The translations under genes were made by a program, and so were the position numbers. DNA of 51,795 nt from an uncultured archaeon (lineage in GTDB: Archaea > Aenigmatarchaeota > Aenigmatarchaeia > CG10238-14 > SCSR01). The notes beneath the pieces are model-generated. The model was given only the letters and a program-made list of their open reading frames with translations, did no database searches and was not told where the DNA came from. The stretch is from assembly GCA_964366355.1 (NCBI GenBank), contig CAYITO010000002.1, forward strand, positions 1 to 51,795, given 5' to 3'. Below are positions 22,830-46,245 of the stretch, one piece after another (the stretch's first letter is position 1; each line of letters opens with the position of its first letter).

Positions 22830-23975
22830 ATGCTGGAAAGGAAAGAATTACAGGAAATTGCTTCGAATTATTCTAATGTAACTATCGGTGTTTTGGGCTC
22901 TCATTCTGCCGAGGAAGTTGGAATTGCCGCCAGGATATTTGGCTTTCCTACAGTTATCATATGCCAGAAAGGCAGGGATGATCTGTATGCCAAACACAAC
23001 AGACATCTATTCGATACTTTTATCACGCTGGACAAATTTTCAGACATGCTCAAAGACAATGTTCAGGAGAGATTGCGAGAATTAAACACGGTCTTCATAC
23101 CAAATCGCTCGTTTTCGGTGTATGTGGGCTATGATGGCATAGAAAATTCATTCAAAGTCCCTTTGTACGGCAACAGATTCCTTTTAAGGACGGAAGAGAG
23201 AACAGAATCAAAAAATCAATATTGGCTGCTTGAGAAGGCTGGAATAAGAATCCCGAAAAAGTTCAGTTCGCAAGATGAAATTGATAGGCTGGTAATAGTT
23301 AAAGTTCAGCAAAAACACAGGCCTAATGAAAGGGCGTTTTTCTACTGCAGCTCCAGCGAAGAGTTTGAAAAGAGATCAAATGAACTGCTAGGGAAAGACA
23401 TGATAACCAAAAATGATTTAGAGAAGGCGAGAATAGAGGAATTTGTCCTCGGTCAGAAATTCAATGCAAATTTCCACGGCTGGATAACAAAAGAAATTGG
23501 TGATTTTGATTTTGTTGGTTTTGACGAAAGAAAGCAAACCAACTTGCATGGAATATTGTCTTTGCCTGCAAAGGAGCAAATATCTGTAGATGTGCCGATA
23601 GTGAATGAGGAGGTTGGCCATTCAGGATTGACAATGAGGGAATCTCAAAAACCTTTAGTTTATGAGGCGGCTGAGAAATTTAGGAAAGTATGTGAAAAAG
23701 AGTTTGTACCCGGAATATTCGGATTGTTTGCCTTGCAGGGAGCATTGGCTTATGATAACAATAAACTGGAATTTTTTGTGTTTGATGTCAGTCCAAGAGT
23801 TCCCGGAGCGCCTGCAGTCGGTCCGACTTCGCCGGAAATGAGAAGACTTACGCTGAAATATGGAAATTTGCTGTCGCAATTCAATATGCCAAAAATTGAA
23901 TCGCCGATGGACTTATCTATGCTTGAAATAAAGTATGCTATTAAAAACAAGAGGCTTGATGATGTGGTTACATGA
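22830..23975 (+). CDS. purP: FAICAR synthetase PurP (ATP-grasp, formate-dependent), paralog 1
   Basis: IGVLGSHSAEEVG ... VPLYGNRFLLRTEER matches the archaeal PurP (MJ0136-like) family. Confidence 0.75.
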   Translation: MLERKELQEIASNYSNVTIGVLGSHSAEEVGIAARIFGFPTVIICQKGRDDLYAKHNRHLFDTFITLDKFSDMLKDNVQERLRELNTVFIPNRSFSVYVGYDGIENSFKVPLYGNRFLLRTEERTESKNQYWLLEKAGIRIPKKFSSQDEIDRLVIVKVQQKHRPNERAFFYCSSSEEFEKRSNELLGKDMITKNDLEKARIEEFVLGQKFNANFHGWITKEIGDFDFVGFDERKQTNLHGILSLPAKEQISVDVPIVNEEVGHSGLTMRESQKPLVYEAAEKFRKVCEKEFVPGIFGLFALQGALAYDNNKLEFFVFDVSPRVPGAPAVGPTSPEMRRLTLKYGNLLSQFNMPKIESPMDLSMLEIKYAIKNKRLDDVVT

Positions 23976-25120
23976 TTACAAAAGAAAAAATCAATGAAAC
24001 CCTGGAGAAGTTCGACAAGAATAAGATTACTATAGCCACAATCTGCTCCCATTCTGCTCTGCAAATATTTTTTGGCGCCAAACAGGAAGGTTTCAGGACT
24101 TTGGGAATTTGCAGCAGTGATACGCAGAAAAAATCCTATCAGGCATTTCAGTCATCCGCCCCTGATGAATTCCTGAAAGTTGAAAGCTGGAAGGATATTT
24201 TAGACGAGGGCTTCCAAGAGGAATTGATCAAGAAAAATGCTGTAATTGTTCCACACGGCTCGTTCGTAGAATACGTGGGCACAGATAATTTGTTGAACAA
24301 TCTTAAGGTTCCGATGTTCGGGAACAGACAAAGCCTAGAGTGGGAATCTGACAGGAACAAACAGAGGGAATGGCTTGAGAAGAACGCTGGACTTGAGATG
24401 CCAAAAGAATACAATAGAAATGAAGTGCAGCAGGGCAAACTTTATTTTGTCAAGTTCGGCGGGGCAAAGGGAGGAAAGGGCTTTTTCAAAATCAGATCGG
24501 CTGAACAGATTGACGAGGAAATAGAAAAGATGGTTAAGATAAAAATGTTATCGAAAGAGGATGTAAAATCAATCACTATTCAAGATTATATTCCTGGCAG
24601 CAGATATTATCATCACTTTTTCTTTTCCCCATTATCGAACAATGGCTGGGAGATTAATTACAATAGTCGGCCAGTTGGCGGAGTGACTTTGATGGGAATT
24701 GACAGAAGGGATGAAACTAACATCGATGATCTGCATAGAACAGGATTGAATCCAAGCGAGATGAGGGAAATTGGTATCATGCCGAGCTACAGCGTTGCTG
24801 GAAATACGCCGTTGATTGCAAGGGAATCCCAGTTGCCCAAAATTTTTGAACTGGCTGACAAATCTGTTAAAGCATCCATTAAATTGTTCCCTCCTGGAAT
24901 GGTGGGTCCATTTTGCATAGAAACGTTCTTCACACCTGAAATGAAATACATAGCATTTGAAGTATCTTGCAGGATTGTCGCGGGAACTAACCTGTATCCA
25001 TCCGGCTCGCCATATACAGTTTATGCATTCGGCGATGCTGCTATATCCACCGGCAGAAGAATCGCCCAGGAAGTCAAAACTGCAGTAAAAACTAATCAAC
25101 TAGAAAAAGTAATTTATTAA
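23972..25120 (+). CDS. purP: FAICAR synthetase PurP, paralog 2
   Basis: KITIATICSHSALQIFFGAKQEGFRTLGI ... VPHGSFVEYVG ... VPMFGNRQSLEWESDRNKQREWLEKNAGLEMPKEY is a close match to archaeal PurP. It overlaps paralog 1 by 4 bp. Confidence 0.85.
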   Translation: MITKEKINETLEKFDKNKITIATICSHSALQIFFGAKQEGFRTLGICSSDTQKKSYQAFQSSAPDEFLKVESWKDILDEGFQEELIKKNAVIVPHGSFVEYVGTDNLLNNLKVPMFGNRQSLEWESDRNKQREWLEKNAGLEMPKEYNRNEVQQGKLYFVKFGGAKGGKGFFKIRSAEQIDEEIEKMVKIKMLSKEDVKSITIQDYIPGSRYYHHFFFSPLSNNGWEINYNSRPVGGVTLMGIDRRDETNIDDLHRTGLNPSEMREIGIMPSYSVAGNTPLIARESQLPKIFELADKSVKASIKLFPPGMVGPFCIETFFTPEMKYIAFEVSCRIVAGTNLYPSGSPYTVYAFGDAAISTGRRIAQEVKTAVKTNQLEKVIY

Positions 25121-25122
25121 TT

Positions 25123-25617
25123 ATGAACAAAAAGGCCCTGCTTGAATCTGCTTTATTTGTTTCTGACAAGCCGTTGAGCCTGCAAAGACTGTCGGGCTTG
25201 GTTGGTGTTGGTTCTCAAGAGGAAATCAAGGAACTCGTAGAAGAGATGCAGCAAGATTTGGAGAAAGTCGACAGGGGTTTGGAACTGATTGAAACGCCTG
25301 AAGGCTATGAATTAAGAGTAAAGACGGAATATAGAGACCGCGTTGCCAGGCTTGCACCATTCTCGGATTTATCGGATGGCATGATGAGGACTCTGGCGAT
25401 AGTTGCAGTGAAGCAGCCAGTCAAACAATCGGTCATCGTCAGGTATCAGGGAAATAAGGCATATGGTTACATAGCTGAATTGGAAAAGAAGGGCCTGGTG
25501 AAGACGGAAAAGTACAGCAGGACCAAGCTGGTAAGCACAACACCAGATTTTGACAAATATTTTGGGAAGAGCAGCGTCGAGATCAAGAATATTCTGAAAG
25601 AGGAAGCCAAATCCTAA
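25123..25617 (+). CDS. scpB: Segregation and condensation protein B (ScpB)
   Basis: ESALFVSDKPLSLQRLSGL ... two winged-helix repeats. Confidence 0.75.
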   Translation: MNKKALLESALFVSDKPLSLQRLSGLVGVGSQEEIKELVEEMQQDLEKVDRGLELIETPEGYELRVKTEYRDRVARLAPFSDLSDGMMRTLAIVAVKQPVKQSVIVRYQGNKAYGYIAELEKKGLVKTEKYSRTKLVSTTPDFDKYFGKSSVEIKNILKEEAKS

Positions 25618-25648
25618 TTTATATATCTAGATTGCCAATAAAATTTCT

Positions 25649-26113
25649 ATGCCAAGGCCAAATTGGGATGAATATTTTATGGAGATGGCACACGTTGCCA
25701 AAAAGCGTTCTACATGCCTCTCTAGGCAAGCTGGCGCGGCCTTGGTGAAAGACAATCGGGTTATAGCAACTGGCTATAACGGAACCCCATCAAAGACAAA
25801 ACACTGCAACGAAGGTGGCTGTCAAAGGTGCAAGAACAAGATGGATGGAATCACGCCATCAGGGTCTGATTTAAGCAATTGTGCATGCTGCCATGCCGAG
25901 GAAAATGCAATAGTTCAAGCCGCTCTGCATGGTGTAAGTACGAAGGATACAACATTATATACAACATTCACTCCCTGCACACTGTGCTCGAAGATGATAA
26001 TCAATGCTCAGATAAAAAGAGTTGTTGCTGGCGAGGAATATAGTGACGACTTGGGCACGAAACTTCTAAGAGAAGCTAGTGTTCAATTGGATTTGTTCGA
26101 TTCTAAGAATTAA
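25649..26113 (+). CDS. dCMP/CMP deaminase (zinc-dependent cytidine deaminase family)
   Basis: HAEENAI ... PCTLCSKMII zinc-binding motifs. Confidence 0.8.
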   Translation: MPRPNWDEYFMEMAHVAKKRSTCLSRQAGAALVKDNRVIATGYNGTPSKTKHCNEGGCQRCKNKMDGITPSGSDLSNCACCHAEENAIVQAALHGVSTKDTTLYTTFTPCTLCSKMIINAQIKRVVAGEEYSDDLGTKLLREASVQLDLFDSKN

Positions 26114-26126
26114 AAGCTAAAAAAGT

Positions 26127-28001
26127 TTAAATCACGCCTGCTCTGACCAAAACCACTGCTATGATTATCACTACAACTACTATTGCGATTATAGGCAGTA
26201 CATCACCGCCTGCGCCTGGCACTGTTGGTGTTGGGGTTGGAGCTGGTGTTGGTGTGGGTTTCGGAGTTGGAGTCGGGGCTGGAACAGTACTGGGTACACT
26301 TGGAGCGGCCTCTTCAAATGAAATTGCAAATACTGAAAATCCAGGTGTCTCGGCTTCATAAGTTATGATGTCCGTGCCCTCCAAAACTTTGGTTGTGCTT
26401 AACCTGTTCCATACGCTATTTGCGAATCTGTTCAAATACATCTTGTCTGCATTTGCATTATTTGCAGTAATCCATTGCTTCTCTACTTTGAATTTGATTT
26501 TAGCCTTGTCTATAGAGCTTTCAGGCAGTCCAGATGGTTTTATATCCAAGTATCTGAATATTTTTCCTGGAGCTTCTGTCACATCTGCAGGCTTTGCATC
26601 CAGCTTATTTACAGTAACATAAACAGAAGTGACATCATTCTTTACAGTAATCGATATAGATGCTACATCACCTGTTTTGATTTCTGCTATCGCCTCTTTG
26701 CCTGCCGACACCTTTGCAATAAATACCTGTGTCTTTCCTTCTGATGGTGTTGAGACAACTGGCACTGATATGGTGGATGTTGTTCCAGGTCCTCCTGGTG
26801 CTGACGGCAGAAGCGTAATGGAGAACTTGACCTTCGATTCTGCTTTGTTGCTTGATGGGTCTGTACATTGCACCGTAATTGTGTGATCCCCGCTATTCAA
26901 ATCGCTAAGGGTAATATCTACACCTTGGCTTAGGGTCTTGAAGTTTCCGGTATTAATCTTATAATCACAACCTGTTGTGCCTGCCACGTTATCGCCAGCA
27001 TTGGCCTTAAATATGACTGTTGCTTCTGTGAATGCACTGCCGCCTGTAGGTTTAAGTATGTTAACATTTGGGTTTTCATTGTCGTTGGCAGTTATAATTA
27101 CTGTCACATTGGAAGCTGTGAAGTTTACATTCCCAGGGTTCAAAAATACTGTTGCGTTGTATGACCTGTTTGATAGCTGGGGTATAGAAGTAATGTTCAA
27201 GCCACTATCTCCTTGTATGTTCGTGAAGTTGAGCATTTTCCATCCAGAGATGTTGGTGTTCAGGCCAATGTATATAATTTCTCTGGTGGCGTTAGTAGTT
27301 ACACGGGAGTTGGTTGCATTGCTAAGGGTACTTGTTCTATTTTCATGGGCGGATATGTTGAATATCATATTTTCATTATTGACAAAATTATAGGTTCTGT
27401 TTCCGTTTGTTCCATTGAGCATGATAGATAGGTTTATCGGATGCTGTGGCACATAGAAGGTAACAGTTGTGGAGTTACCGAGTCCTCCTCCTACCGCAAG
27501 TGCATCTGTAGTATTGTAGGTACGTATTGTCAAGTTCCAGTTCCCAGCTGCTCCCAACTCTGTCTGGCTTATGTTAATCCACCACATGCCCCCTGTATCG
27601 TTGCCCATAAATGTGACATTAGTTCCTGAACCGTTCAACAGTCTGCCACTTGAATAAAATGTGAAGTTCAAGCTGCGGTTGTATGTTCCATCGCTGTTAT
27701 TTGCAGTGAGATTTTGATAAGCAAAAGTCCAAGTAACATTTGAAATGTTATAAAAATCAGTGGTCGCTGCAGTTGCATTATGTGTTATGTTTATAGCAAA
27801 ACTGTATATGTTAGAAGCGTTATATGTCTGGTTCCCTAAGTTCTTTATAGTGACATAAGACTCGTTTGTAGATAGATATGAGAAGTTTCCTCCAGTCATT
27901 TTAAACTGTGGAGTTGCCAACGCAGAAATCGACATTACTGATAAAGAAACCAAAGCTGTAAGAAAAACTAGCAATAATTTCGTTTGTGGTCTGTCAACCA
28001 T
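26127..28001 (-). CDS. Secreted cell-surface (S-layer-like) glycoprotein with an N-terminal signal peptide, dozens of N-x-S/T sequons, a Pro/Thr linker and a C-terminal TM anchor
   Basis: Signal peptide MVDRPQTKLLLVFLTALVSLSVMSISALA. More than 30 N-x-S/T sequons by eye. The C-terminus is PSTVPAPTPTPKPTPTPAPTPTPTVPGAGGDVLPIIAIVVVVIIIAVVLVRAGVI. Confidence 0.7.
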   Translation of the reverse strand: MVDRPQTKLLLVFLTALVSLSVMSISALATPQFKMTGGNFSYLSTNESYVTIKNLGNQTYNASNIYSFAINITHNATAATTDFYNISNVTWTFAYQNLTANNSDGTYNRSLNFTFYSSGRLLNGSGTNVTFMGNDTGGMWWINISQTELGAAGNWNLTIRTYNTTDALAVGGGLGNSTTVTFYVPQHPINLSIMLNGTNGNRTYNFVNNENMIFNISAHENRTSTLSNATNSRVTTNATREIIYIGLNTNISGWKMLNFTNIQGDSGLNITSIPQLSNRSYNATVFLNPGNVNFTASNVTVIITANDNENPNVNILKPTGGSAFTEATVIFKANAGDNVAGTTGCDYKINTGNFKTLSQGVDITLSDLNSGDHTITVQCTDPSSNKAESKVKFSITLLPSAPGGPGTTSTISVPVVSTPSEGKTQVFIAKVSAGKEAIAEIKTGDVASISITVKNDVTSVYVTVNKLDAKPADVTEAPGKIFRYLDIKPSGLPESSIDKAKIKFKVEKQWITANNANADKMYLNRFANSVWNRLSTTKVLEGTDIITYEAETPGFSVFAISFEEAAPSVPSTVPAPTPTPKPTPTPAPTPTPTVPGAGGDVLPIIAIVVVVIIIAVVLVRAGVI

Positions 28002-28206
28002 AATAATCTTTATTTTTCCTTATTTATAAATATTTGTTTAAGCGAATCAGCCTCGCTTTCGTTTGTTATATTATTGTGAAACTCTTATATAAACCTGCTT
28101 TTTTACCATTTCACTATGTTATAATAGTTAATTATTGTTAGGCTATAGAAGGCCTTTCTGAAGTTTTAGCTTTATTTTCTGCTCTATTCGGCTTCGTTTT
28201 TTTATT

Positions 28207-28884
28207 CTACTGACGCTTTGCCACAAGAACAAACTGATACGCAAATATGGTGGGGAAAAGGACTGCCAAAAGATACAGGAAATTATAGATAATGCCGAAT
28301 TTGGACAATGACGGATAAACAAGCTGTATTGGTATGGGGGTAAATTTTATCCTCTCAATCTCAAATCTTCTCAACAGTTGAGTTGCAGACTTCAAGGTAA
28401 AAAATCTCAAATGGGTTCTATCTAAAATGCCTTTGTCTTGGTATCCAAACCTGCCGAATAACAGGTTTAACCGCATATATATATTGGCAACATTGGGCAA
28501 GGAAACTATAATTCTTCCGCCTTTTTTTAAAAATTTGGAAAAAAGGGCTAAAACTGCATCCGGATTCCTTAAATGCTCTAGTACATCTGCGAAGACGATA
28601 TAATCAAACCTCTCCTTTATCTTTGGAACAGATGCTTCCAAATCTAATGTGAAAACCCGTTTGTAGGCGCCCCTGCACCTTCTTGCAGCTTCCTTGTCTT
28701 TATCTATCCCAAAAACTGTACAACCTTTGTTCCTTATTAGTCTTCCAATTATGCCATCATAGCACCCGACATCCAAAACTTGAGTATTGGACTGGATTAA
28801 TTTTGCAATTTGGTTATGACTGCTAAACCGGTCATCTTTATAGGCGTATTTTTTTATCATAATATCACAAAGAATTAATTTCAT
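28207..28884 (-). CDS. Class I SAM-dependent methyltransferase
   Basis: VLDVGCYDGIIG (motif I) ... DYIVFADVLEHL. Confidence 0.75.
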   Translation of the reverse strand: MKLILCDIMIKKYAYKDDRFSSHNQIAKLIQSNTQVLDVGCYDGIIGRLIRNKGCTVFGIDKDKEAARRCRGAYKRVFTLDLEASVPKIKERFDYIVFADVLEHLRNPDAVLALFSKFLKKGGRIIVSLPNVANIYMRLNLLFGRFGYQDKGILDRTHLRFFTLKSATQLLRRFEIERIKFTPIPIQLVYPSLSKFGIIYNFLYLLAVLFPTIFAYQFVLVAKRQ

Positions 28885-28933
28885 TTATGGAGTATCTATA
28901 AGTTATTGATAAAATGGCACATGGTGTAGGAAT

Positions 28934-29683
28934 GTGGTTGAAAAGCCGAAAATAATCGTGGTAATTCTTGCGCAGAATTCTGAGAAGACTATTGGAAAAA
29001 CTTATCAAGACATTCCACATGGGTTAGTGAAGAAAATAATTATACATGACGATGCCAGCAAGGATCGGACAGTTTATATTGCCAAAAGACTTGGTTTAGA
29101 GACAATTGTACAAAAAATATCTAAAGGTTATGGCGGATCGCAAAAGGCTGCCTATACAGAAGCACTGAAGCAGAATGCCGATGTCATAGTAATGTTGCAT
29201 GCTGATTATCAATATGATCCAAAGAAAATTCCGGAATTAGTAAGACCTCTGATTGAAGGAAAGCGTGATATAATGCTCGGTTCTAGGATGATTGGCAAAG
29301 GTGCATTGAGAGGCAGAATGCCTTTGTGGAGATATGTGGGAAATAAGGTTCTCACCAAGATTGAAAACATAGTTCTAGGATTGGATTTATCGGAATTTCA
29401 CACCGGACTTAGGGCTTATAACAGAAACTTCCTTCAAACCATCCCATTTAAACTTAATTCGGACGATTTCGTTTTTGATCAGCAGGTTCTGATACAGGCT
29501 GTAGTTTTTGGCTTTAAAGAAAGGATTGGTGAAATTGGCATTCCCACCCGGTATTTCAAAGAAGGCTCAAGCATAAGTCTTAAAAATTCATTGATATACA
29601 CATTAGACACGGTTAAAAGTCTCTTAATATATATTCTACACAAATACAGAATTAAAACTTCTAAAAATTTGATTAGAAAGTGA
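28934..29683 (+). CDS. Family-2 glycosyltransferase (dolichyl-phosphate sugar synthase-like)
   Basis: IIVVILAQNSEKTIGKT ... IIHDDASKDRT ... GT-A fold DxD region. Confidence 0.75.
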   Translation: MVEKPKIIVVILAQNSEKTIGKTYQDIPHGLVKKIIIHDDASKDRTVYIAKRLGLETIVQKISKGYGGSQKAAYTEALKQNADVIVMLHADYQYDPKKIPELVRPLIEGKRDIMLGSRMIGKGALRGRMPLWRYVGNKVLTKIENIVLGLDLSEFHTGLRAYNRNFLQTIPFKLNSDDFVFDQQVLIQAVVFGFKERIGEIGIPTRYFKEGSSISLKNSLIYTLDTVKSLLIYILHKYRIKTSKNLIRK

Positions 29684-29733
29684 ATTGCCTGCATTTTTAT
29701 TTTATAAAGTGTCTATTCTAACTAACGTTAGAC

Positions 29734-30849
29734 ATGCGCATCGCAATAACGAAACCGCATATATCTACTAGAAATAAGATATTGATTCTGCTGATTTTAG
29801 GCATTATTGTTAGATTGTTATTTTGGTCTTCCAAATTGTCATTTGTTGACAACGAAAGCATTTCGCATTTAAGATATGCTGAAAGTATAATGAATTTGGA
29901 GATTCCTAAAACCCAGTGGATAGGCACAAAAGACGGTTTTTATTCTTATGAATCTTACCCACCTAGCCTATATTTAATTACAGCTTCTTTTGGAATTTTT
30001 GCATCTAATATTTTTTCATTCACTCTCTTGGCAAAAATCGTTAGCCTAATTTTTTCTTTATTGACTCTTGCAGTTAGTGCAATCTATTCGCTTAAAATGA
30101 AAAATCATTATGTAATAGCATTAGTTGCCCTGATTCCCTTAGAGTGGTTCGAATCCTTACCGAGGTTTAATAACGACATTGTAGTGGCGTTTTTCGCTTC
30201 TTTGGTATTCCTGGTTGCATTAAAGGAGATTAATGCCAAAAATATGATTATTCTCGCTTTGTTTACTTCGCTGGCTCTACTTTCAAAATTTACTGCCATA
30301 TTGCTATTGATACCCATGCTACTCTACATTTGGTTTAATTCAAAAAATCTCAAATTCATTTTAATTTTCCTGGCCATCACGGCTTTTATTGCAGGTCCAT
30401 GGTATTTGAGAAATCTATTGCTTTATGGAGATCCCTTATTTGTTCCTTACACAGAAGCCGAACAGGCGGGCCCTAAAAGTCTTGCCTTCTTTATGGAGGG
30501 CTATGTATTCGGATTCTTCCCTTTTTGCACACTTGGTTACATTGAGGACATAGTAATTTTAGGCGTATCTGTTTTTCTCATATATACCATAATGAGAGGC
30601 TTGGAGGAAAGGTTTAGGCATATGGCATCTTCCAAGATTGTTGATCCGGCCGCCTTGTTTCTCCCATTGATATTTGTTGTTTGGATAGCCGTTAAATATG
30701 TATTTCCAAGTGGATCTGCTAAATATCTCCTTCCAGCTCTATTGCCTCTGGCGGTTATTTCTAGTTCCGGAACTAAAAACAAGTATATCGTTTGGTTTGT
30801 TAGCATTAGTTTTGCCTATCTGTTTATCAAAGTTTTATTAACATGCTGA
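29734..30849 (+). CDS. Polytopic membrane protein, probably a GT-C-type glycosyltransferase (ArnT/PMT-like), paralog 1
   Basis: 371 aa with about 10 predicted TM helices. It sits in a glycosylation gene context. The fold assignment is inference. Confidence 0.45.
   Translation: MRIAITKPHISTRNKILILLILGIIVRLLFWSSKLSFVDNESISHLRYAESIMNLEIPKTQWIGTKDGFYSYESYPPSLYLITASFGIFASNIFSFTLLAKIVSLIFSLLTLAVSAIYSLKMKNHYVIALVALIPLEWFESLPRFNNDIVVAFFASLVFLVALKEINAKNMIILALFTSLALLSKFTAILLLIPMLLYIWFNSKNLKFILIFLAITAFIAGPWYLRNLLLYGDPLFVPYTEAEQAGPKSLAFFMEGYVFGFFPFCTLGYIEDIVILGVSVFLIYTIMRGLEERFRHMASSKIVDPAALFLPLIFVVWIAVKYVFPSGSAKYLLPALLPLAVISSSGTKNKYIVWFVSISFAYLFIKVLLTC
29864..30260. repeat. About 400-bp near-identical segment (copy 1) shared by the two membrane-protein paralogs
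   Basis: agcatttcgcatttaagatatgctgaaagtataatgaatttggag ... ggagattaat is matched almost base-for-base at 31584..31980. The first clear mismatches fall near 30233 and 30237. Confidence 0.85.
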
Positions 30850-30861
30850 TAAAGTTTTAGT

Positions 30862-31416
30862 ATGAATGTCATTTTAAAGATTCTATTTAAGTTTCGTGCC
30901 AAATACTATGCGAAACATCTTTTTCCATATTTAAAGGGAACTGACAAGGTTTTGGATATTGGTGCTGGAAGTGGCTTTATCTCTGAACATTTGGCAGAAA
31001 AATGCTCAATGGAATTGGTTGATGTTAAGGATTACAACCAAACCTCACTTCCTTTGAAGATATTTGATGGCGAACATTTGCCTTATAGAAATAGCTCATT
31101 CGATAAATGCATTCTTGTAACTGTACTGCATCATGCTAGCTTGCCAAGGCAAATAAAATTATTAAAAGAAGCCAAAAGAGTTGGCAAAAAAGTTATAATC
31201 ATCGAGGCATTGTATTATAATTCTATTCAAAGCGTGTGGTTAAAATTCTACGATTTATTTTTAAATTTTATAGCAGGTGTTCCCGTAAAATGGACTTTCC
31301 ACGATGACAAGACTTGGAAACAGTTGTTTGGAAAAGTTGGCTTGAAATTGAAATCGGAAAAAGAATTCCCAGGAGCTATCGGATTGATAAAATTAAAGCT
31401 ATATGAGTTAGCATGA
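30862..31416 (+). CDS. Class I SAM-dependent methyltransferase
   Basis: VLDIGAGSGFISEHL (motif I) ... ILVTVLHH. Confidence 0.7.
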   Translation: MNVILKILFKFRAKYYAKHLFPYLKGTDKVLDIGAGSGFISEHLAEKCSMELVDVKDYNQTSLPLKIFDGEHLPYRNSSFDKCILVTVLHHASLPRQIKLLKEAKRVGKKVIIIEALYYNSIQSVWLKFYDLFLNFIAGVPVKWTFHDDKTWKQLFGKVGLKLKSEKEFPGAIGLIKLKLYELA

Positions 31417-31583
31417 TATTTCTTTAGTTGACTATCATTTACTTAATACGTTATAATTTAATTAAAAGGTGATACGGGATAAAAGGTTTAATATCACTTC
31501 CTATAAAGCATAAGATAATTCTCTTATTAGGTATAGGTATTATACTTCAAATTGTATATTGGAGTACTCGAATAAATATTTTT

Positions 31584-31980
31584 GACCACGATAGCATTTC
31601 GCATTTAAGATATGCTGAAAGTATAATGAATTTGGAGATTCCTAAAACCCAGTGGATAGGCACAAAAGACGGTTTTTATTCTTATGAATCTTACCCACCT
31701 AGCCTATATTTAATTACAGCTTCTTTTGGAATTTTTGCATCTAATATTTTTTCATTCACTCTCTTGGCAAAAATCGTTAGCCTAATTTTTTCTTTATTGA
31801 CTCTTGCAGTTAGTGCAATCTATTCGCTTAAAATGAAAAATCATTATGTAATAGCATTAGTTGCCCTGATTCCCTTAGAGTGGTTCGAATCCTTACCGAG
31901 GTTTAATAACGACATTGTAGTGGCGTTTTTCGCTTCTTTGGTATTCCTGGTTGCATTAAAGGAGATTAATACCAAAAATG
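31584..31980. repeat. About 400-bp near-identical segment (copy 2)
   Basis: See 29864..30260. The 3' parts of the two genes are much more diverged, which indicates gene conversion or a recent partial duplication. Confidence 0.85.
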
Positions 31981-32597
31981 TGATTATTCTCGCTTTGTTT
32001 ACATCTTTTGCGCTGTTATCAAATTATAATGCATTGGTGCTCGCCTTAGTTACTTTATTTTACATTAAAAACAATTCCAAGAACAGAAAATTAGTTATAA
32101 TGTTTATAGCTATAGTAGCTTTGCTTGCAGGTCCATGGTATTTGAGAAATCTATTGCTTTATGGAGATCCCTTATATGTGCCTTCGCTGATTCATACTGA
32201 AGATTATAAGCCTGCCAGAGGAGCAGGAATATTTTTTGAAAATTATTTTTTAGGGTTCTTTCCTAGTTGTATTGTTGGGCTTCACTTAAATTACATAACC
32301 CTGTTTTTAACAATTCTTATTATATTTTTTACAATGAGAAATTTAGAGGACAGATTTAAACACATGTTATCTCTCAAGATTGTTGATCCGATTGCGTTAT
32401 TTCTTCCACTTTTGTTGATTAGCTGGATTTTATTTGGTTATACTTATTCTGATTTATTTTCGCCACGTTATTTAATTTCAGGCATTTTGCCGTTATCTGT
32501 TGTCGCTTCTTCTAGCATTAAATCTAAATACGGATTTTGGATCATTTACATTGGATTTATGTATTTCTTTTTTCATAATTTCATAAATTGTTTGTAG
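31626..32597 (+). CDS. Polytopic membrane protein paralog 2. No canonical start codon lies upstream, although about 50 homologous in-frame codons are present
   Basis: The in-frame upstream translation YGIKGLISLPIKHKIILLLGIGIILQIVYWSTRINIFDHDSISHLRYAESI aligns to paralog 1 residues 10-50. It contains no ATG/GTG/TTG back to the stop at 31470-31472. Confidence 0.55.
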   Translation: MNLEIPKTQWIGTKDGFYSYESYPPSLYLITASFGIFASNIFSFTLLAKIVSLIFSLLTLAVSAIYSLKMKNHYVIALVALIPLEWFESLPRFNNDIVVAFFASLVFLVALKEINTKNVIILALFTSFALLSNYNALVLALVTLFYIKNNSKNRKLVIMFIAIVALLAGPWYLRNLLLYGDPLYVPSLIHTEDYKPARGAGIFFENYFLGFFPSCIVGLHLNYITLFLTILIIFFTMRNLEDRFKHMLSLKIVDPIALFLPLLLISWILFGYTYSDLFSPRYLISGILPLSVVASSSIKSKYGFWIIYIGFMYFFFHNFINCL

Positions 32598-32606
32598 TGT
32601 ATGTGC

Positions 32607-32636
32607 ATGGTAAACGTAATCAAAGCCGACGGCAAG
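32607..32636. repeat. Decayed duplicate of the 5' end of the ATP-cone gene (atggtaaacgtaatcaaagccgacggcaag, giving MVNVIKADGKL*)
   Basis: 27/30 identical, apart from a 3-nt indel, to 33180..33212 (atggtggacgtaataaaagccgacggcagcaag). Confidence 0.8.
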
Positions 32637-32669
32637 CTTTAATAGAATGCCAGCGTATCTTTATTTTGT

Positions 32670-32912
32670 ATGACCATGAAATCTGCAACAAACGAGGAAA
32701 GACTGTTAAGGCACTTGGAACCGAAGATAAGGAGAATAGTGCATGAAACTCTAAAGGAGGCCTTACCCAACGAAATATATTATCCTCCAGAATATAAGCT
32801 GAAAAAGAGCTTTGTAAAAAGGGTGTTGGAAGCTCAAAGAAGAGTTAAAGAAGGCAATGGAAAGACCTACACTTACGAAGAATTTAAAAGGAAGTTTCTA
32901 AAAGGTTTGTAG
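32670..32912 (+). CDS. Antitoxin partner of the RelE-like toxin (family unassigned)
   Basis: 80 aa, directly upstream of and abutting the toxin gene. Confidence 0.45.
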   Translation: MTMKSATNEERLLRHLEPKIRRIVHETLKEALPNEIYYPPEYKLKKSFVKRVLEAQRRVKEGNGKTYTYEEFKRKFLKGL

Positions 32913-33179
32913 ATGGAAAATCCTTATGATATTAAGATTGAATCCAAACTTGAAAAGTTGCTTAACAAGATAAAAAAGAAGGATAGGATTTTATACGAAA
33001 GGATTATTAAACAGATGCTAAAATTGGCTGAAACTCCTAAGCAAGGAAAACCATTGAGAAACATTCTAAAAGGTAAATGGAGAGTGCAAATTGGTCCTTT
33101 CGTATTGGTTTATGCAATTGACGAGAATCAACATAAAGTAGTATTTTTAGAGTTTGAACACCATGACAGGGTGTATTGA
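32913..33179 (+). CDS. RelE/ParE-family type II toxin
   Basis: GKPLRNILKGKWRVQIGPFVLVYAIDENQHKVVFLEFEHHDRVY. Its stop TGA is immediately followed by the ATG of the next gene. Confidence 0.75.
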   Translation: MENPYDIKIESKLEKLLNKIKKKDRILYERIIKQMLKLAETPKQGKPLRNILKGKWRVQIGPFVLVYAIDENQHKVVFLEFEHHDRVY

Positions 33180-33992
33180 ATGGTGGACGTAATAAAAGCC
33201 GACGGCAGCAAGCAGCCTTTCGAAAAATATAAAGTGGTTAGAACCTGCCTTAGAATGAAGGTAGATAGGGATGCTGCAGAGGGGATAGCAAACAGTATAG
33301 AAAAGAAGCTGTATGAAGGAATTGCAACCAAGCAAATCCTAAAGATGATCTTCAGTTACATAAGTGTATACAAGCCCCAAATGAAGCACCAAATAGATTT
33401 GCGGGAGGCTGTATGCCTATTAAGACCGAAACCTGATTTTGAACATTTCGTTGGGATGCTTCTAAAGGCTGAAGGATATGAAGTCAAAACAAACAAAATC
33501 GTCGCAGGAAGATGTGTAGAACATGAAATTGACGCTATTGCTAACAAGAGGAATGAAGCTTTGTATGTGGAAGCAAAACATCACTACAAGCCGCACTCTT
33601 ATACAGGCCTTGATGTTTTCCTTGAAACTCAGGCTACTTTTGAGGACTTGATAGAAGGCAAGAACAATTTTTCAAAGGCAGTTGTAATAACAAATGCCAA
33701 ACTGTCTGAACATGCCAAAAGATATGCGGAATGCAAGAATATTTCGGCCATAGGCTGGAGATATCCGAATGAAAATGGATTGGAATCTATGATAGAAAAG
33801 AATAGATTGTATCCGGTCACATTACTCAAAGGTTTGGATGTTAACATGCAAGCAAGACTGGCAGATAAGGGGATTATTTTGTTGAGCCAGCTTGCTGAAT
33901 ATAATGCGGAAAAATTGAACAAGATGGCGAAGATTGGCAAATCTAAAGCTAATCAAATCTTAAGGAAAGCCCATGAAATTTTAGGAAGCTGA
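33180..33992 (+). CDS. ATP-cone domain fused to an Mrr-like (PD-(D/E)xK) restriction-endonuclease domain and a C-terminal helix-hairpin-helix
   Basis: N-terminus VIKADGSKQPFEKYKVVRTCLRMKVDRDAAEGIANSIEKKL is an ATP-cone. The middle, FEHFVGMLLKAEGYEV ... HEIDAIA ... YVEAKHH ... AVVITNAKLSEHAKRYAECKNISAIGW, is Mrr_cat-like. The C-terminus, LLKGLDVNMQARLADKGIILLSQLAEYNAEKLNKMAKIGKSKANQIL, is an HhH. Confidence 0.6.
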   Translation: MVDVIKADGSKQPFEKYKVVRTCLRMKVDRDAAEGIANSIEKKLYEGIATKQILKMIFSYISVYKPQMKHQIDLREAVCLLRPKPDFEHFVGMLLKAEGYEVKTNKIVAGRCVEHEIDAIANKRNEALYVEAKHHYKPHSYTGLDVFLETQATFEDLIEGKNNFSKAVVITNAKLSEHAKRYAECKNISAIGWRYPNENGLESMIEKNRLYPVTLLKGLDVNMQARLADKGIILLSQLAEYNAEKLNKMAKIGKSKANQILRKAHEILGS

Positions 33993-34027
33993 ACCCACTT
34001 CAAAAGTTGTTGACGCCCAACTAAATT

Positions 34028-34714
34028 TTACGATTCGCAACCTATTCCATTTTTATTTCCATCAAATCGATGTGGATCTGGTGGCAAAACACGGAATTTT
34101 TTATACGATATATCCTTACAGTCCAAATCGGGCGGTGGCGGCGGGATACAAACATCGGGATAAGAAGGATCGCAGTTTTCTTTAGATTCGACGGTAGTAG
34201 ATTGTTGCCCTGACTGTGTACTATTTTGCTGAGTTTCTGTGGCGGCTTGTTGTGGCTGTTCACAATCGCTTGGACAAAGTTCGTAACTTTCGTCGGCATC
34301 GCATTTGCCATTTCCGCAGCATGTTGAAGAGTAGATAAGTGTGCAACTCCCAGAAACGCAAGAATTTTTATAACAACTATTCTTTTCCATTCCTTTGCAT
34401 CCCTCAACTTCACCTTTCAATACAGTATATTTGCATTTGAAGTCTGTTGTCTTGTTGCAATATTCATAGGTGCATGGGTTGCCGTCATTGCACGACTCTT
34501 TGCAACTTTCTTCAACCTTAACACTTTCTGCAGTCGCGGAAGATTTAGTTTCAGTTGGTTCTGGCTCATTGTCTATTTCAACAGCTGTAGTTTCCGATGT
34601 TATAATATATTTATCATTGTTAATGGAATTTTGAAAGCTGAAATTGGTTATAACATAAGTAGTTAGTGAAGAAATTGCCACGGCCAAAACAAGGTAGATT
34701 GCAAGCTTATCCAT
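34028..34714 (-). CDS. Secreted Cys-rich protein with a C-terminal Excalibur (extracellular Ca-binding) domain
   Basis: Signal/TM segment MDKLAIYLVLAVAISSLTTYVI. About 24 Cys. The C-terminal DCKDISYKKFRVLPPDPHRFDGNKNGIGCE matches the Excalibur DxDxDGxxCE pattern. Confidence 0.6.
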   Translation of the reverse strand: MDKLAIYLVLAVAISSLTTYVITNFSFQNSINNDKYIITSETTAVEIDNEPEPTETKSSATAESVKVEESCKESCNDGNPCTYEYCNKTTDFKCKYTVLKGEVEGCKGMEKNSCYKNSCVSGSCTLIYSSTCCGNGKCDADESYELCPSDCEQPQQAATETQQNSTQSGQQSTTVESKENCDPSYPDVCIPPPPPDLDCKDISYKKFRVLPPDPHRFDGNKNGIGCES

Positions 34715-34746
34715 AGATTTAATTGTTTTAGATAAAATATATTTAA

Positions 34747-35592
34747 TTAAGAAATCCTTTTTGACAGAAAATCCTTAGCCACCTTCTCGTAATCTTCAGG
34801 CATGCCTATATCAGCCCAATACCCGTTGTAAACAAATCCGTACAGATTTTCCTTCTTCACCAGCTCTGCAAATATATCGTTCTCAAGCGAGACCATCTTG
34901 TTCTTGGCAATGAACCTGAATATCTCCGGCTCCAGAACACACAAGCCTGCATTGATCAATCCCGATGTCGCGTACTTTGGCTTTTCTGTGAAATCAACTA
35001 TCCTTCCTTCATCATTAATTTCAACCAGCCCGAATCTTCTTGCATCCTTCGCCTTCCAGAGAACTAGCGTGCCTAAAGCCTGTTTCTCCTTGTGGAATTT
35101 CATGATTTCCTTGAGGTCAATGTTCCCAAACAAGACATCCCCGTATGTGAAGAAGAAGGGTGAGTTGACCAAATTCTCAGCATTCTTCAAAGCCCCTCCT
35201 GTGCCAAGTGGGTTTTTCTCCGGGGCGTATTGTATGTTGATTCCCAGTGACGAGCCGTCTCCAAAATATTTTACAATATGCTCGGCCATATAGCCTATTG
35301 ACAAAACAAAATTATTGAAGCCTTGGCTGCTGTAGAATTGCAATGTATGTTCTAGAATCGGCTTATATCCCAAAGGCAGCATTGACTTGGGTATTGATAG
35401 CGTCAGGGGCCTCATTCTGCTCCCCTCACCGCCGCACAAGATGACTACTTTGGTTGCTTCCCTTGCGAGCTTCTCTTTCACAGATTCGATGATAAATGTC
35501 CCCTTTTTCCTTTCAGGAACCTTCGCTGAAAGCTCCTTCCACAAATCCGGAGGGAATTCAATTGACGTCCTGTGCTTGAACATGCCAATCAC
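34747..35592 (-). CDS. Sugar-phosphate nucleotidyltransferase (RmlA/ManC-like) with a ribbon-helix-helix-like N-terminal extension
   Basis: VVILCGGEGSRMRPLT ... GTGGAL is the NTP-transferase core. The 45 aa N-terminal extension SIEFPPDLWKELSAKVPERKKGTFIIESVKEKLARE has an RHH pattern, with no internal Met. Confidence 0.65.
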   Translation of the reverse strand: MIGMFKHRTSIEFPPDLWKELSAKVPERKKGTFIIESVKEKLAREATKVVILCGGEGSRMRPLTLSIPKSMLPLGYKPILEHTLQFYSSQGFNNFVLSIGYMAEHIVKYFGDGSSLGINIQYAPEKNPLGTGGALKNAENLVNSPFFFTYGDVLFGNIDLKEIMKFHKEKQALGTLVLWKAKDARRFGLVEINDEGRIVDFTEKPKYATSGLINAGLCVLEPEIFRFIAKNKMVSLENDIFAELVKKENLYGFVYNGYWADIGMPEDYEKVAKDFLSKRIS

Positions 35593-35665
35593 TAATATGT
35601 GAAATTTGTTTATATATAAACTTTATGTACATAGAACTTATATGGTTAAATATAGCGTATAACTA

Positions 35666-44115: not shown

Positions 44116-44213
44116 TGGGTCTGCCCGGATTCGAACCGGGGTTTACGCGATTTTGAAAGTTTCGTCAACGCGCCGTCCTTTGCGGATTTTTTAAACCGCT
44201 AGACTACAAACCC
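44116..44213 (-). tRNA. tRNA-Val (anticodon GAC) with a 12-nt intron at 37/38 and a possible second insertion in the D-loop
   Basis: Minus-strand sequence GGGTTTG TA GTCT [AGCGGTTTAAAAAATCCGCAAA] GGAC G GCGCG TTGACG[AAACTTTCAAAA]T CGCGT AAAC CCCGG TTCGAAT CCGGG CAGACCC A. The acceptor and T arms are perfect. U33 and purine-37 are present. Confidence 0.65.
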
Positions 44214-46148: not shown

Positions 46149-46245
46149 CGCCTAGGGCGAGATTTGAACTCGCAAGGTCTTTCGACCGCTGGTTACTCGC
46201 CAAAGGATAGCAAACCAGTGCCATACCAGGTTAGGCGACCTAGGC
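46149..46245 (-). tRNA. tRNA-Ser (anticodon GCU), class II with a long variable arm and a 13-nt intron at 37/38
   Basis: Minus strand: GCCTAGG TC GCC TAACCTGGTAT GGC A CTGGT TTGCTA[TCCTTTGGCGAGT]A ACCAG CGGTCGAAAGACCTT GCGAG TTCAAAT CTCGC CCTAGGC G. All stems are perfect and the total is 97 nt. Confidence 0.85.

What the first reader, a model, noticed from the sequence alone, without database searches (positions are those of the whole stretch)
26127..32597. Cell-surface glycosylation island with a ~400-bp gene-conversion tract and a start-less membrane-protein paralog
- Contents: an S-layer-like glycoprotein with dozens of N-glycosylation sequons and a Pro/Thr stalk plus C-terminal TM. It is followed by a methyltransferase, a GT2, a polytopic GT-C-like membrane protein, another methyltransferase, and a second membrane-protein paralog.
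- Repeat: the paralogs share about 400 bp of almost identical DNA (29864-30260 vs 31584-31980). The rest of the two genes is diverged, which implies recent gene conversion.
- Missing start: paralog 2 has about 50 homologous in-frame codons upstream of its first ATG (31626), with no ATG/GTG/TTG. It is either N-terminally truncated (lacking TM1) or non-canonically initiated.
- Relevance: such cassettes are typical of variable surface-glycan loci.
Basis: seen in the sequence. Interest (0 to 1): 0.55.

Follow-up and report, generated by a model that had tools for sequence, protein, structure and literature searches.

The report
Tandem archaeal glycosyltransferase paralogs, one start-less
An uncultured groundwater archaeon carries two neighbouring copies of a membrane sugar-transferase gene that share short patches of identical DNA; the second copy has lost its start codon by one base change, while the long 400-bp identical stretch is missing from another assembly of the same genome and may be an assembly error.

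Summary
Gene A (29734-30849) and gene B share an exact 378-nt run, 29857-30234 = 31593-31970 (offset 1736, not 1720). B has 51 homologous in-frame codons (31473-31625) with no ATG, GTG or TTG.

Both genes encode compact GT-C-fold glycosyltransferases. They sit in a low-GC surface-glycan cluster between housekeeping genes.

Two new results:
- **The long tract is not reproducible.** An independent assembly (L001) matches the window over 12.6 kb except for one SNP and 83 differences, all within 31673-31904. There B keeps its own middle, about 63% identical to A. Only three short patches of 80, 66 and 51 nt are robust. These cover conserved motifs and show very low synonymous divergence (pS 0.05-0.19 against 0.69 elsewhere), so they reflect DNA-level homogenisation. 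Sister contigs loop or break at or within 1 nt of k=55 boundaries of these patches. The long tract is therefore either a very recent conversion haplotype or a mis-path; I rate this about even.
- **The missing start is real.** It is identical in three assemblies. A 1x-coverage contig from the 0.2-µm fraction has T at 31477, which makes an in-frame GTG. The window allele is thus probably a GTG→GGG start loss.

The start-less codons encode TM1 and the conserved GT-C acidic motif, so the annotated 323-aa product would very probably be inactive.

The finding is ordinary in kind and of modest interest.

The parts
26127..28001 (-). Surface (S-layer-like) glycoprotein, 624 aa. It has an N-terminal signal-like hydrophobic segment, 33 N-glycosylation sequons confined to aa 39-298, an Ig-like region, a PGF-pre-PGF domain, a Pro/Thr stalk and a C-terminal TM segment.
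   Evidence: 33 sequons against 13.3 +/- 3.2 expected; TIGR04213, 101.7 bits, cutoff 28. No PGF-CTERM model hit at E <= 0.01.
28207..28884 (-). Class I SAM-dependent methyltransferase (MT1), divergently transcribed from the GT2 gene.
   Evidence: Methyltransf_23, E = 5e-20; Methyltransf_11/12/25/31.
28934..29683 (+). GT2 glycosyltransferase, 249 aa. It most resembles polyprenyl/dolichyl-phosphate sugar synthases (AglJ, Dol-P-hexose transferase, PpgS, ArnC).
   Evidence: Glycos_transf_2, E = 9e-19; the best NCBIfam hits are all polyprenol-P-sugar synthases, and all fall far below the equivalog cutoffs.
29734..30849 (+). Paralog A, a compact 371-aa GT-C (GT-C_A) fold glycosyltransferase of the PMT_2/DUF8201 type. 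TM1 spans aa 12-33 and JM1 spans aa 40-53. D39/E41 sit at the JM1 tip. A TATA-like box (29701-29708) lies about 30 nt upstream of the ATG.
   Evidence: PMT_2, 29.0 bits, cutoff 26.1; PF26626; pLDDT 89, pTM 0.90; top 31 PDB hits are all GT-C enzymes; conserved acidic column and His.
30862..31416 (+). Class I SAM-dependent methyltransferase (MT2), 184 aa, between the two GT-C paralogs.
   Evidence: Methyltransf_11, E = 2e-9; Methyltransf_25.
31473..32597 (+). Paralog B, full homologous reading frame of 374 codons after the stop at 31470-31472. There is no ATG, GTG or TTG before 31626.
   Evidence: codon alignment to A; identical in L001 and twice in L002.
31476..31478 (+). Codon GGG in the window, L001 and L002, but GTG in contig L005 (31477 G->T). 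This is the probable ancestral start codon of B.
   Evidence: Only 6 of 2982 possible single substitutions in L005 would create an in-frame start upstream of TM1. The other L005 difference (30771) is synonymous.
31473..31625 (+). The start-less segment of 51 codons. It encodes TM1 and most of juxtamembrane helix 1, including D38-H39-D40 and His44, which align with the family's nearly invariant acidic residue and His.
   Evidence: column >= 90% D; helix boundaries in A. PMC12041299 describes the catalytic Asp at the JM1 tip in GT-C_A enzymes.
31626..32597 (+). The ORF from the first ATG (323 aa), which is the public gene model. It begins at the residue equivalent to Met53 of A, the end of JM1.
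   Evidence: P0002 323 aa; P0001 322 aa; P0003 318 aa.
29857..30234 (+). A-copy of the 378-nt exact repeat as it stands in the window.
31593..31970 (+). B-copy of the 378-nt exact repeat as it stands in the window.
31593..31672 (+). Patch 1, 80 nt exact with A 29857-29936 in all assemblies. It encodes SISHLRYAESIMNLEIPKTQWIGTKDG.
31673..31904 (+). Assembly-variable middle. It is A-type in the window. In L001 and L002 it is a B-specific sequence, about 63% identical to A and 3 nt shorter. All 83 clustered window-versus-L001 differences lie here.
31905..31970 (+). Patch 2, 66 nt exact with A 30169-30234 in all assemblies. It encodes NNDIVVAFFASLVFLVALKEIN. The L002 hybrid switches from B to A inside this patch.
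32125..32175 (+). Patch 3, 51 nt exact with A 30389-30439. It encodes AGPWYLRNLLLYGDPL.

Best explanation
**What the locus is.** This is a surface-glycan gene cluster of an uncultured groundwater archaeon.

**Proposed pathway (inferred).**
- Two tandem, compact GT-C-fold transferases, A and B, would then use such lipid-linked sugars on the outer face. The likely acceptor is a glycan on the adjacent sequon-rich surface protein.
- Two SAM-dependent methyltransferases would modify the sugars.

**History of the paralogs (shown and inferred).**
- A and B are old paralogs. Synonymous sites are saturated outside the patches, and dN/dS is about 0.25.
- Three conserved-motif segments of 80, 66 and 51 nt have been homogenised at the DNA level by short-tract gene conversion.

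**State of B in the window.**
- B has lost its start codon by a single G-for-T change, GTG to GGG at 31476-31478.
- A co-occurring variant still carries the GTG, so the loss looks polymorphic in the population.
- The start-less codons encode TM1 and the acidic motif at the tip of juxtamembrane helix 1 that GT-C_A enzymes need for catalysis.
- The allele is therefore most likely a fresh null, or at best poorly translated. The annotated 323-aa product would be inactive.

**The extra 232 nt.** This stretch turns the patches into one 378-nt identical tract in the window. It is either a very recent A-to-B conversion present in part of the population, or a wrong path through the assembly graph. I rate these about equally.
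For: **Shown**
- Gene families.
- GT-C fold: with PMT_2 above cutoff for A and 50 of 64 remote homologues matching PMT_2.
- A conserved acidic residue and His lie in the start-less segment. Their position matches the JM1 tip, and PMC12041299 states that all GT-C_A enzymes have an essential Asp there.
- Patch homogenisation: pS is 0.05-0.19 in the patches against 0.69 outside. Only about 50% (61 of about 123) of same-amino-acid codons outside the patches use the same codon, whereas the patches contain runs of 26, 22 and 16 identical codons.
- Start region: identical in the window, L001 and twice in L002. L005 carries GTG at 31476-31478 together with a synonymous variant elsewhere.
- Tract variability: 83 of the 84 window-versus-L001 differences fall in 31673-31904.
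- Graph signatures:
  - L002 ends at 31647, exactly 55 nt into patch 1.
  - L007 starts at 31917, 54 nt before the first B-specific base.
  - The L002 hybrid switches from B to A inside patch 2.
  - In that sample the 3' part of B after patch 2 is held only from 32233, on a separate 3x contig (L009).
- The sister contigs found here carry the names of that study's H51 filter-fraction replicates, which were assembled one by one with metaSPAdes v3.13. metaSPAdes deliberately collapses larger bulges.

**Inferred**
- The pathway logic is drawn by analogy with Haloferax volcanii AglD/AglS/AglP (PMC3871713).
Against: - No expression, glycan or activity data exist.
- The GTG allele rests on one contig of 1x coverage.
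- Apart from the start, B has no disabling lesion. The 51 start-less codons remain open, which has a chance probability of about 0.02 at this base composition. B may therefore still be translated from a non-canonical codon. ATA at 31479 lies 5 nt after a GGTGAT Shine-Dalgarno-like motif, the same spacing as the one clear SD-led gene in the window.
- The GT2 and GT-C assignments are at family level only, well below equivalog cutoffs.
- The acceptor could be a lipid or another protein rather than the neighbouring glycoprotein.
- Read error-correction or bulge collapse could have sharpened the patches from about 95% to 100% identity.
Confidence: 0.6

Rival explanations
1. The 378-nt identity tract is an assembly artefact. 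The real genome is L001-like, with B keeping its own middle. In the window's assembly, the path between the two shared patches (80 and 66 nt, both longer than k=55) went through the A-type middle. This could happen by bulge collapse, or by a coverage gap in the B middle.
For: - L001 differs from the window only in 31673-31904, plus one SNP.
- L002 takes a third path, a B/A hybrid with a loop, and stops exactly 55 nt into patch 1. L007 starts within 1 nt of the k=55 boundary of patch 2.
- The contigs have SPAdes-style names and 3-5x coverage.
- The sister contigs come from that study's per-replicate metaSPAdes v3.13 assemblies. metaSPAdes collapses larger bulges than SPAdes.
Against: - The window is a 51.8-kb contig, which suggests higher coverage than the sister contigs. 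Random gaps are then unlikely, and a 378-nt repeat is normally resolved by read pairs.
- The two middles are only about 63% identical, and I could not verify that metaSPAdes would collapse so diverged a bulge.
- L007 carries an A-type base at 31980 next to a B-type base at 31971. That combination needs real reads, or mis-correction of reads, so recombinant molecules may exist.
Confidence: 0.45
2. The 378-nt tract is a genuine, very recent A-to-B gene conversion, primed by the flanking identical patches. It is present in one sub-population, while L001-type cells keep the unconverted B. The L002 hybrid could then be a real unequal-crossover product.
For: - The short patches show that conversion has occurred at this locus.
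- The rest of the 12.6 kb is identical apart from one SNP, as expected for a recent event.
- L007 shows a mosaic SNP.
- Strain-level variants exist in the population, in L005 and L009.
Against: The contig ends and the loop coincide with k=55 graph vertices, as listed for the artefact rival. Coverage is low, and there is no read-level evidence.
Confidence: 0.45
3. B is a functional full-length gene translated from a non-canonical initiator. The best candidate is ATA at 31479-31481, which lies 5 nt downstream of GGTGAT (31468-31473). The GGG/GTG difference would then be irrelevant or only modulatory.
For: - The GGTGAT-N5 spacing equals that of the SD-led gene at 4715-5551, which has GGTGAT-N5-ATG.
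- The 51 codons stay open and keep TM1 and the acidic motif.
- There are no other lesions.
Against: - GGTGAT occurs 21 times in the window, mostly inside genes, so one intergenic occurrence is weak evidence.
- Most genes here have a TATA-like box about 27-33 nt upstream of the start, which implies leaderless mRNAs. From general knowledge, leaderless mRNAs depend on a canonical 5' start codon.
- A variant with an in-frame GTG one codon upstream exists.
Confidence: 0.12
4. B is expressed by a +1 ribosomal frameshift, or the sequence has a one-base error. In either case the out-of-frame GTG at 31469 would join the main frame at the A-run 31481-31484.
For: GTG at 31469 opens a 14-codon frame that overlaps the start of the B frame. 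AAA-AGG is formally a possible +1 slip site (sequence).
Against: - Three independent Illumina assemblies agree base for base.
- There are no homologues with which to test conservation of a slip site.
- The explanation is ad hoc.
Confidence: 0.03

Closest known systems
GT-C_A fold polyprenyl-phosphate-sugar-dependent glycosyltransferases (Pfam PMT_2 PF13231, clan GT-C; for example ArnT, PglB/AglB/STT3, AftB, ALG3/6/9, PMT)
   Same: - The model has a multi-helix membrane core with TM1, then two juxtamembrane helices, then TM2 onwards.
- An acidic residue sits at the JM1 tip.
- PMT_2 scores above its cutoff for A.
- Foldseek hits are exclusively GT-C enzymes (TM-score normalised to the query 0.5-0.59).
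   Different: - The proteins are very compact, about 371 aa, with no soluble extracytoplasmic domain.
- Sequence similarity to any solved structure is undetectable.
- The nearest homologue outside the locus is only 33% identical.
- Donor and acceptor are unknown.
Haloferax volcanii AglD / AglS / AglP module of S-layer N-glycan completion
   Same: The parts list matches. A GT2 makes a Dol-P-sugar inside the cell. A membrane transferase adds that sugar to the already protein-linked glycan outside. A SAM methyltransferase modifies a sugar. The genes are clustered (PMC3871713).
   Different: - No sequence comparison with AglS was made.
- The GT2 scores far below the AglJ and Dol-P-hexose transferase cutoffs.
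- Here there are two tandem GT-C paralogs.
- No oligosaccharyltransferase AglB was recognised among the window ORFs scanned.
Patchy (mosaic) gene conversion between tandem paralogs in multigene families
   Same: Short tracts of near-zero synonymous divergence are embedded in saturated paralogs, and they coincide with the most conserved protein motifs.
   Different: Directionality and frequency are unknown. The longest apparent tract is not reproducible across assemblies.
De Bruijn-graph misassembly at intragenomic repeats longer than k (metaSPAdes, k=55)
   Same: Three assemblies give three different paths through the same two shared nodes. Contig ends fall on, or within 1 nt of, the 55-mer boundaries.
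   Different: The assembler and coverage of the window's own contig are unknown. No reads were available to prove a mis-path.

Membership tests
GT-C fold glycosyltransferase (Pfam PMT_2, PF13231) | Profile match at or above Pfam's gathering score | tested here: met
   A scores 29.0 bits against a cutoff of 26.1. The extended B scores only 18.1 bits, below the cutoff. 50 of 64 remote homologues match PMT_2.
GT-C fold glycosyltransferase (GT-C_A class) | Conserved N-terminal structural module: TM1, two juxtamembrane helices, TM2-7 | tested here: met
   The AF2 model of A has pLDDT 89 and pTM 0.90. The Foldseek top 31 PDB hits are all GT-C enzymes: STT3, ArnT, AglB, PglB, AftB, ALG3/6/9, Emb and Pmt4.
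GT-C fold glycosyltransferase (GT-C_A class) | Catalytically essential acidic residue at the tip of juxtamembrane helix 1 | tested here: met
   The alignment column is at least 90% Asp in 64 homologues. A has D39/E41 and B has D38/D40. JM1 starts at residue 40 in the model. The rule is stated in PMC12041299. In B this residue lies upstream of the first ATG.
GT-C fold glycosyltransferase | Use of a polyprenyl-phosphate-linked sugar donor on the outer membrane face | not testable with these tools
   Only context is available. The adjacent GT2 has as its best matches polyprenyl-P sugar synthases.
Dolichyl/polyprenyl-phosphate sugar synthase GT2 (AglJ, AglD, DPM1, ArnC type) | Equivalog-level profile match | tested here: not met
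   AglJ scores 72.7 bits against a cutoff of 325. DPhHxTase scores 59.8 against 375. PpgS scores 48.3 against 370. Resemblance is at family level only. The Pfam GT2 domain is met.
Gene-conversion tract between paralogs | Synonymous divergence collapses inside the tract relative to the flanks | tested here: met
   pS is 0.05-0.19 in the three patches against 0.69 outside them. Runs of 26, 22 and 16 identical codons occur, against about 50% codon identity at conserved residues elsewhere.
Gene-conversion tract between paralogs | The tract is reproducible in independent assemblies or reads | tested here: inconclusive
   Where independent contigs cover them, the patches are as in the window: all three in L001, patches 1-2 in L002, and the A copies of patches 1-2 in L003. 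The central 232 nt (31673-31904) is A-type only in the window. It is B-specific in L001 and L002. No reads were available.
Pseudogene by start-codon loss | No canonical initiator in the homologous N-terminal frame, and this is not a sequencing error | tested here: met
   The region is identical in three assemblies, four copies in all.
Pseudogene by start-codon loss | An allele or orthologue with an intact start at the homologous position | tested here: inconclusive
   L005 has GTG at 31476-31478 but at 1x coverage. No orthologues exist in the databases.
Pseudogene by start-codon loss | Further decay (frameshifts, stops, relaxed constraint) | tested here: not met
   The B frame is intact to its stop, and all family motifs are kept. 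Any inactivation is therefore recent.
PGF-CTERM / archaeosortase-processed surface protein | PGF-pre-PGF domain followed by a PGF-CTERM sorting signal | tested here: inconclusive
   The PGF-pre-PGF domain is met (101.7 bits, cutoff 28). No PGF-CTERM model hit was found at E <= 0.01. The C-terminus reads ...VPGAGGDVLPIIAIVVVVIIIAVVLVRAGVI. No archaeosortase was looked for.

The most novel reading that the evidence does not exclude
The three assemblies may be reporting real molecules. In this groundwater archaeal population, the tandem GT-C paralogs would then recombine often, giving conversion of the middle module, a B/A hybrid with a duplicated GT-C+methyltransferase unit, and variable tract ends. 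A start-codon on/off polymorphism would add further variation. Together these would form a cassette-like system that diversifies the surface glycan within one otherwise clonal population, perhaps under virus or host-contact pressure.
Probability: 0.25. Interest if true: 0.5.

Novelty: new member of a known kind. Interest (0 to 1): 0.3.

Why it matters
- **Biology.** The locus gives a concrete, testable AglD/AglS-like glycan-finishing module in an uncultured archaeon. Its GT-C enzymes are unusually small and divergent. It also shows a natural on/off variant of one of them.
- **Method.** It is a cautionary case. An apparent 'recent gene-conversion tract' in a metagenome-assembled genome disappears in a sister assembly. 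Contig ends sit at or within 1 nt of k-mer-sized boundaries of the shared patches. Mosaic-paralog claims from short-read MAGs therefore need read-level support.
- **Annotation.** All three public gene models for B (323, 322 and 318 aa) start at an internal Met and omit TM1 and the conserved acidic (presumed catalytic) motif.

Tried and rejected
- **Close homologues.** The word-indexed search of 5.8 billion proteins returned only the four proteins of this locus. An exhaustive phmmer search of 1.84 billion representatives gave a nearest outside hit of 33% identity. No orthologue comparison of starts or of island variability was therefore possible.
- **GTDB representative genomes.** No relative of A was found.
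- **JGI/ENA metagenome scan.** This returned only one more Hainich contig, L003.
- **Exact lookup of the window's 323-aa B.** It is not on record.
- **PDB by sequence profile.** No meaningful hit. The fold had to be tested by structure prediction.
- **Context of the nearest homologue P0006 (L090).** No GT2 or methyltransferase is shared, so it gives no support for a conserved operon.
- **ARAGORN.** It found no tRNAs, whereas Rfam found two tRNA matches of 97-98 nt against a 71-position model, consistent with introns.
- **Shine-Dalgarno argument for an ATA start.** I considered it but judged it weak, because GGTGAT is mostly intragenic.
- **TATA-to-start spacing for B.** This did not discriminate between candidate starts (sequence).
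- **Purifying selection on protein as an explanation for the identical patches.** Rejected, because synonymous sites are identical too.
- **Lineage.** GuaA is 83% identical to an 'uncultured archaeon' MAG from study ERP119705. The next hits are Archaeoglobaceae (68%) and Hadarchaeum (64%). The phylum is unresolved, and I do not claim DPANN.

Full report
**Source and setting.** The window is a complete 51,795-nt contig of an NCBI metagenome-assembled genome. Near-identical contigs come from well H51 of the Hainich groundwater observatory. They derive from the 0.1-µm and 0.2-µm filter fractions and were assembled replicate by replicate with metaSPAdes v3.13.

The organism is an archaeon. Evidence is two tRNA matches of 97-98 nt against a 71-position model, consistent with introns, PurP-type purine genes, and TATA-like boxes about 27-33 nt upstream of most first genes. 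Its phylum is unresolved.

The cluster of interest lies between housekeeping genes: ScpB and dCMP deaminase upstream, PGK, GAPDH and TIM downstream. Its GC content is lower than that of the flanks.

**Checking the observation.**
- The 624-aa surface protein has 33 sequons, all within aa 39-298, against 13.3 +/- 3.2 expected. It also has a PGF-pre-PGF domain, a Pro/Thr stalk and a C-terminal TM segment.
- MT1, GT2, GT-C-like A, MT2 and paralog B follow.
- A and B share an exact 378-nt run, 29857-30234 = 31593-31970. Two mismatches and 22 further identical nt follow, and a 51-nt run lies at 30389-30439 = 32125-32175.
- B's homologous frame opens after TGA at 31470-31472. It runs for 51 codons with no ATG, GTG or TTG before the ATG at 31626.

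**What the proteins are.**
- A passes Pfam PMT_2 (29.0 against a cutoff of 26.1) and carries DUF8201 in precomputed annotation.
- The family is sparse. Beyond this locus the best hit among 1.84 billion representatives is 33% identical. Even so, 50 of 64 remote homologues match PMT_2 and 23 match PMT.
- An AlphaFold model of A, built on that alignment, is confident (pLDDT 89, pTM 0.90). Its 31 best PDB matches are all GT-C enzymes.
- The model has TM1 at residues 12-33 and the first juxtamembrane helix at residues 40-53.
- The alignment shows a nearly invariant acidic residue at that helix's tip (column at least 90% Asp; A has D39/E41, B has D38/D40) and a conserved His. All GT-C_A enzymes have a catalytically essential Asp at this position (PMC12041299).
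- The best NCBIfam matches of the GT2 are all polyprenyl-phosphate sugar synthases (AglJ, Dol-P-hexose transferase, PpgS, ArnC). They are far below equivalog cutoffs.
- The parts list therefore parallels the Haloferax AglD (Dol-P-sugar synthase), AglS (outside transferase) and AglP (methyltransferase) logic (PMC3871713). This is an analogy, not a tested membership.

**The identity tract.** Contig L001 (replicate R3, 12,587 nt) aligns to window 24004-36593 with 84 differing alignment columns (81 substitutions plus a 3-nt deletion). One is at 33169, and the other 83 all lie in 31673-31904. In L001, B has its own middle, about 63% identical to A and 3 nt shorter, which matches the divergence of the rest of the gene. 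The features that hold wherever an independent contig covers them are three patches of 80, 66 and 51 exact nt.

These patches are not explained by protein conservation alone.
- Outside the patches, only about half (61 of about 123) of codons for conserved residues are the same codon.
- The patches contain runs of 26, 22 and 16 identical codons.
- pS falls from 0.69 outside to 0.05-0.19 inside.

DNA-level homogenisation, most simply short-tract gene conversion, is therefore supported. The patches coincide with the family's most conserved motifs: SISHLRY...YPP, NNDIVVAFF and PWYLRN..YGDP.

**Is the long tract real?** Three assemblies give three different paths through the same two shared nodes.
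- In the window, B carries the A-type middle.
- In L001, B carries its own middle.
- L002 (replicate R2) runs A, MT2, then a hybrid made of B-left, B-middle and A-right, then MT2 again, then B-left. The hybrid switches from B to A inside patch 2.

Contig ends coincide with graph boundaries.
- L002 ends at 31647, exactly 55 nt into patch 1.
- L007 (replicate R1) starts at 31917, 54 nt before the first B-specific base at 31971.
- In R2 the only held contig covering B's 3' part, L009 (3x coverage), starts at 32233.

These are the marks of a k=55 de Bruijn graph at repeats longer than k. Coverage is 3-5x, and metaSPAdes deliberately collapses larger bulges.

There are arguments the other way.
- The window contig is long, which suggests better coverage than the sister contigs.
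- The two middles are very different, so bulge collapse is not assured.
- L007 has an A-type base at 31980 next to a B-type base at 31971. That combination needs real recombinant reads or mis-corrected reads.

I cannot decide this without reads. I rate artefact and genuine recent conversion about equally.

**The missing start.** The region 31416-31640 is identical in the window, in L001 and in both copies in L002, so it is not a random error. Contig L005 (0.2-µm fraction, 994 nt, 1x coverage) differs from the window at two positions.
- 30771 is a synonymous GGA→GGG change in A.
- 31477 is G→T, which turns the second codon after the stop from GGG into GTG, in frame.

Only 6 of the 2982 possible single substitutions in that contig would create an in-frame canonical start upstream of TM1. 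Chance is therefore unlikely, roughly 0.4% for two differences. With GTG, the protein would be 373 aa, against 371 aa for A, with a matching N-terminus.

The simplest reading is a polymorphic point loss of the start codon. The window allele would be a fresh null or a poorly translated gene. A product starting at ATG 31626, which is the public gene model at 323, 322 or 318 aa, would lack TM1 and the acidic motif at the JM1 tip, and would very probably be inactive.

Two alternatives remain open.
- **ATA start.** ATA at 31479 follows a GGTGAT motif by 5 nt, the same spacing as the SD-led gene at 4715-5551. However, GGTGAT is mostly intragenic here.
- **+1 frameshift.** A shift from GTG at 31469 is formally possible but ad hoc.

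**Verdict.** The locus is an ordinary but well-defined surface-glycan cluster. It contains tandem, divergent GT-C paralogs that have exchanged short DNA patches. One paralog is start-disabled in this strain. The striking ~400-bp tract should not be cited as gene conversion until reads confirm it.

Noticed in passing
32604-32634 and 33177-33207 (with 32670-33179 between them): A 31-nt imperfect direct repeat (87% identity) flanks a two-gene toxin-antitoxin cassette: an 80-aa putative antitoxin and a ParE toxin. The upstream copy is a dead 11-codon remnant (MVNVIKADGKL*). It mimics the 5' end of the downstream ATP-cone/Mrr_cat gene (MVDVIKADGSKQ...). The cassette seems to have been inserted with duplication of that gene's start.
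   Followed up: partly
L005 (= window 30544-31537), position 31477: A 1x-coverage contig from the 0.2-µm filter fraction carries T instead of G. This creates an in-frame GTG start for paralog B. It also has a synonymous variant at 30771. This points to a second, closely related strain.
   Followed up: yes
L002 (window-equivalent 27742-31647): The contig holds an extra unit, a B/A hybrid GT-C followed by a second copy of MT2. It ends exactly 55 nt into the first shared patch. This is either a looped misassembly or an unequal-crossover variant.
   Followed up: partly
L007 (= window 31917-33594), position 31980: The replicate R1 contig has the A-type base at 31980 but the B-type base at 31971. 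This is a mosaic at the edge of patch 2. It could be a variable conversion endpoint or mis-correction of reads between paralogs.
   Followed up: partly
44116-44213(-) and 46149-46245(-): Rfam found two tRNA matches of 97-98 nt against a 71-position model, which points to introns. ARAGORN, run with its default settings, missed both.
   Followed up: no
22830-23975 and 23972-25120: Two tandem PurP-type genes (DUF1246 + DUF1297, archaeal FAICAR synthetase family) have overlapping stop and start. This is another tandem paralog pair in the window.
   Followed up: no
6560-8449(-): A 629-aa protein combines a putative esterase domain with a Somatomedin B domain (E = 5e-14). The Somatomedin B domain is best known from animal proteins, which makes it unusual here.
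   Followed up: no
34028-34714(-): A 228-aa cysteine-rich protein has an N-terminal TM or signal segment and a weak match to the Dictyostelium CTDC repeat. It lies beside a sugar nucleotidyltransferase (34747-35592), so it may also belong to the surface cluster.
   Followed up: no
31626-32597 (public protein models P0002, P0001, P0003): All database gene models for paralog B start at the internal Met. They omit TM1 and the conserved acidic motif. Automated annotation therefore hides the start problem.
   Followed up: yes
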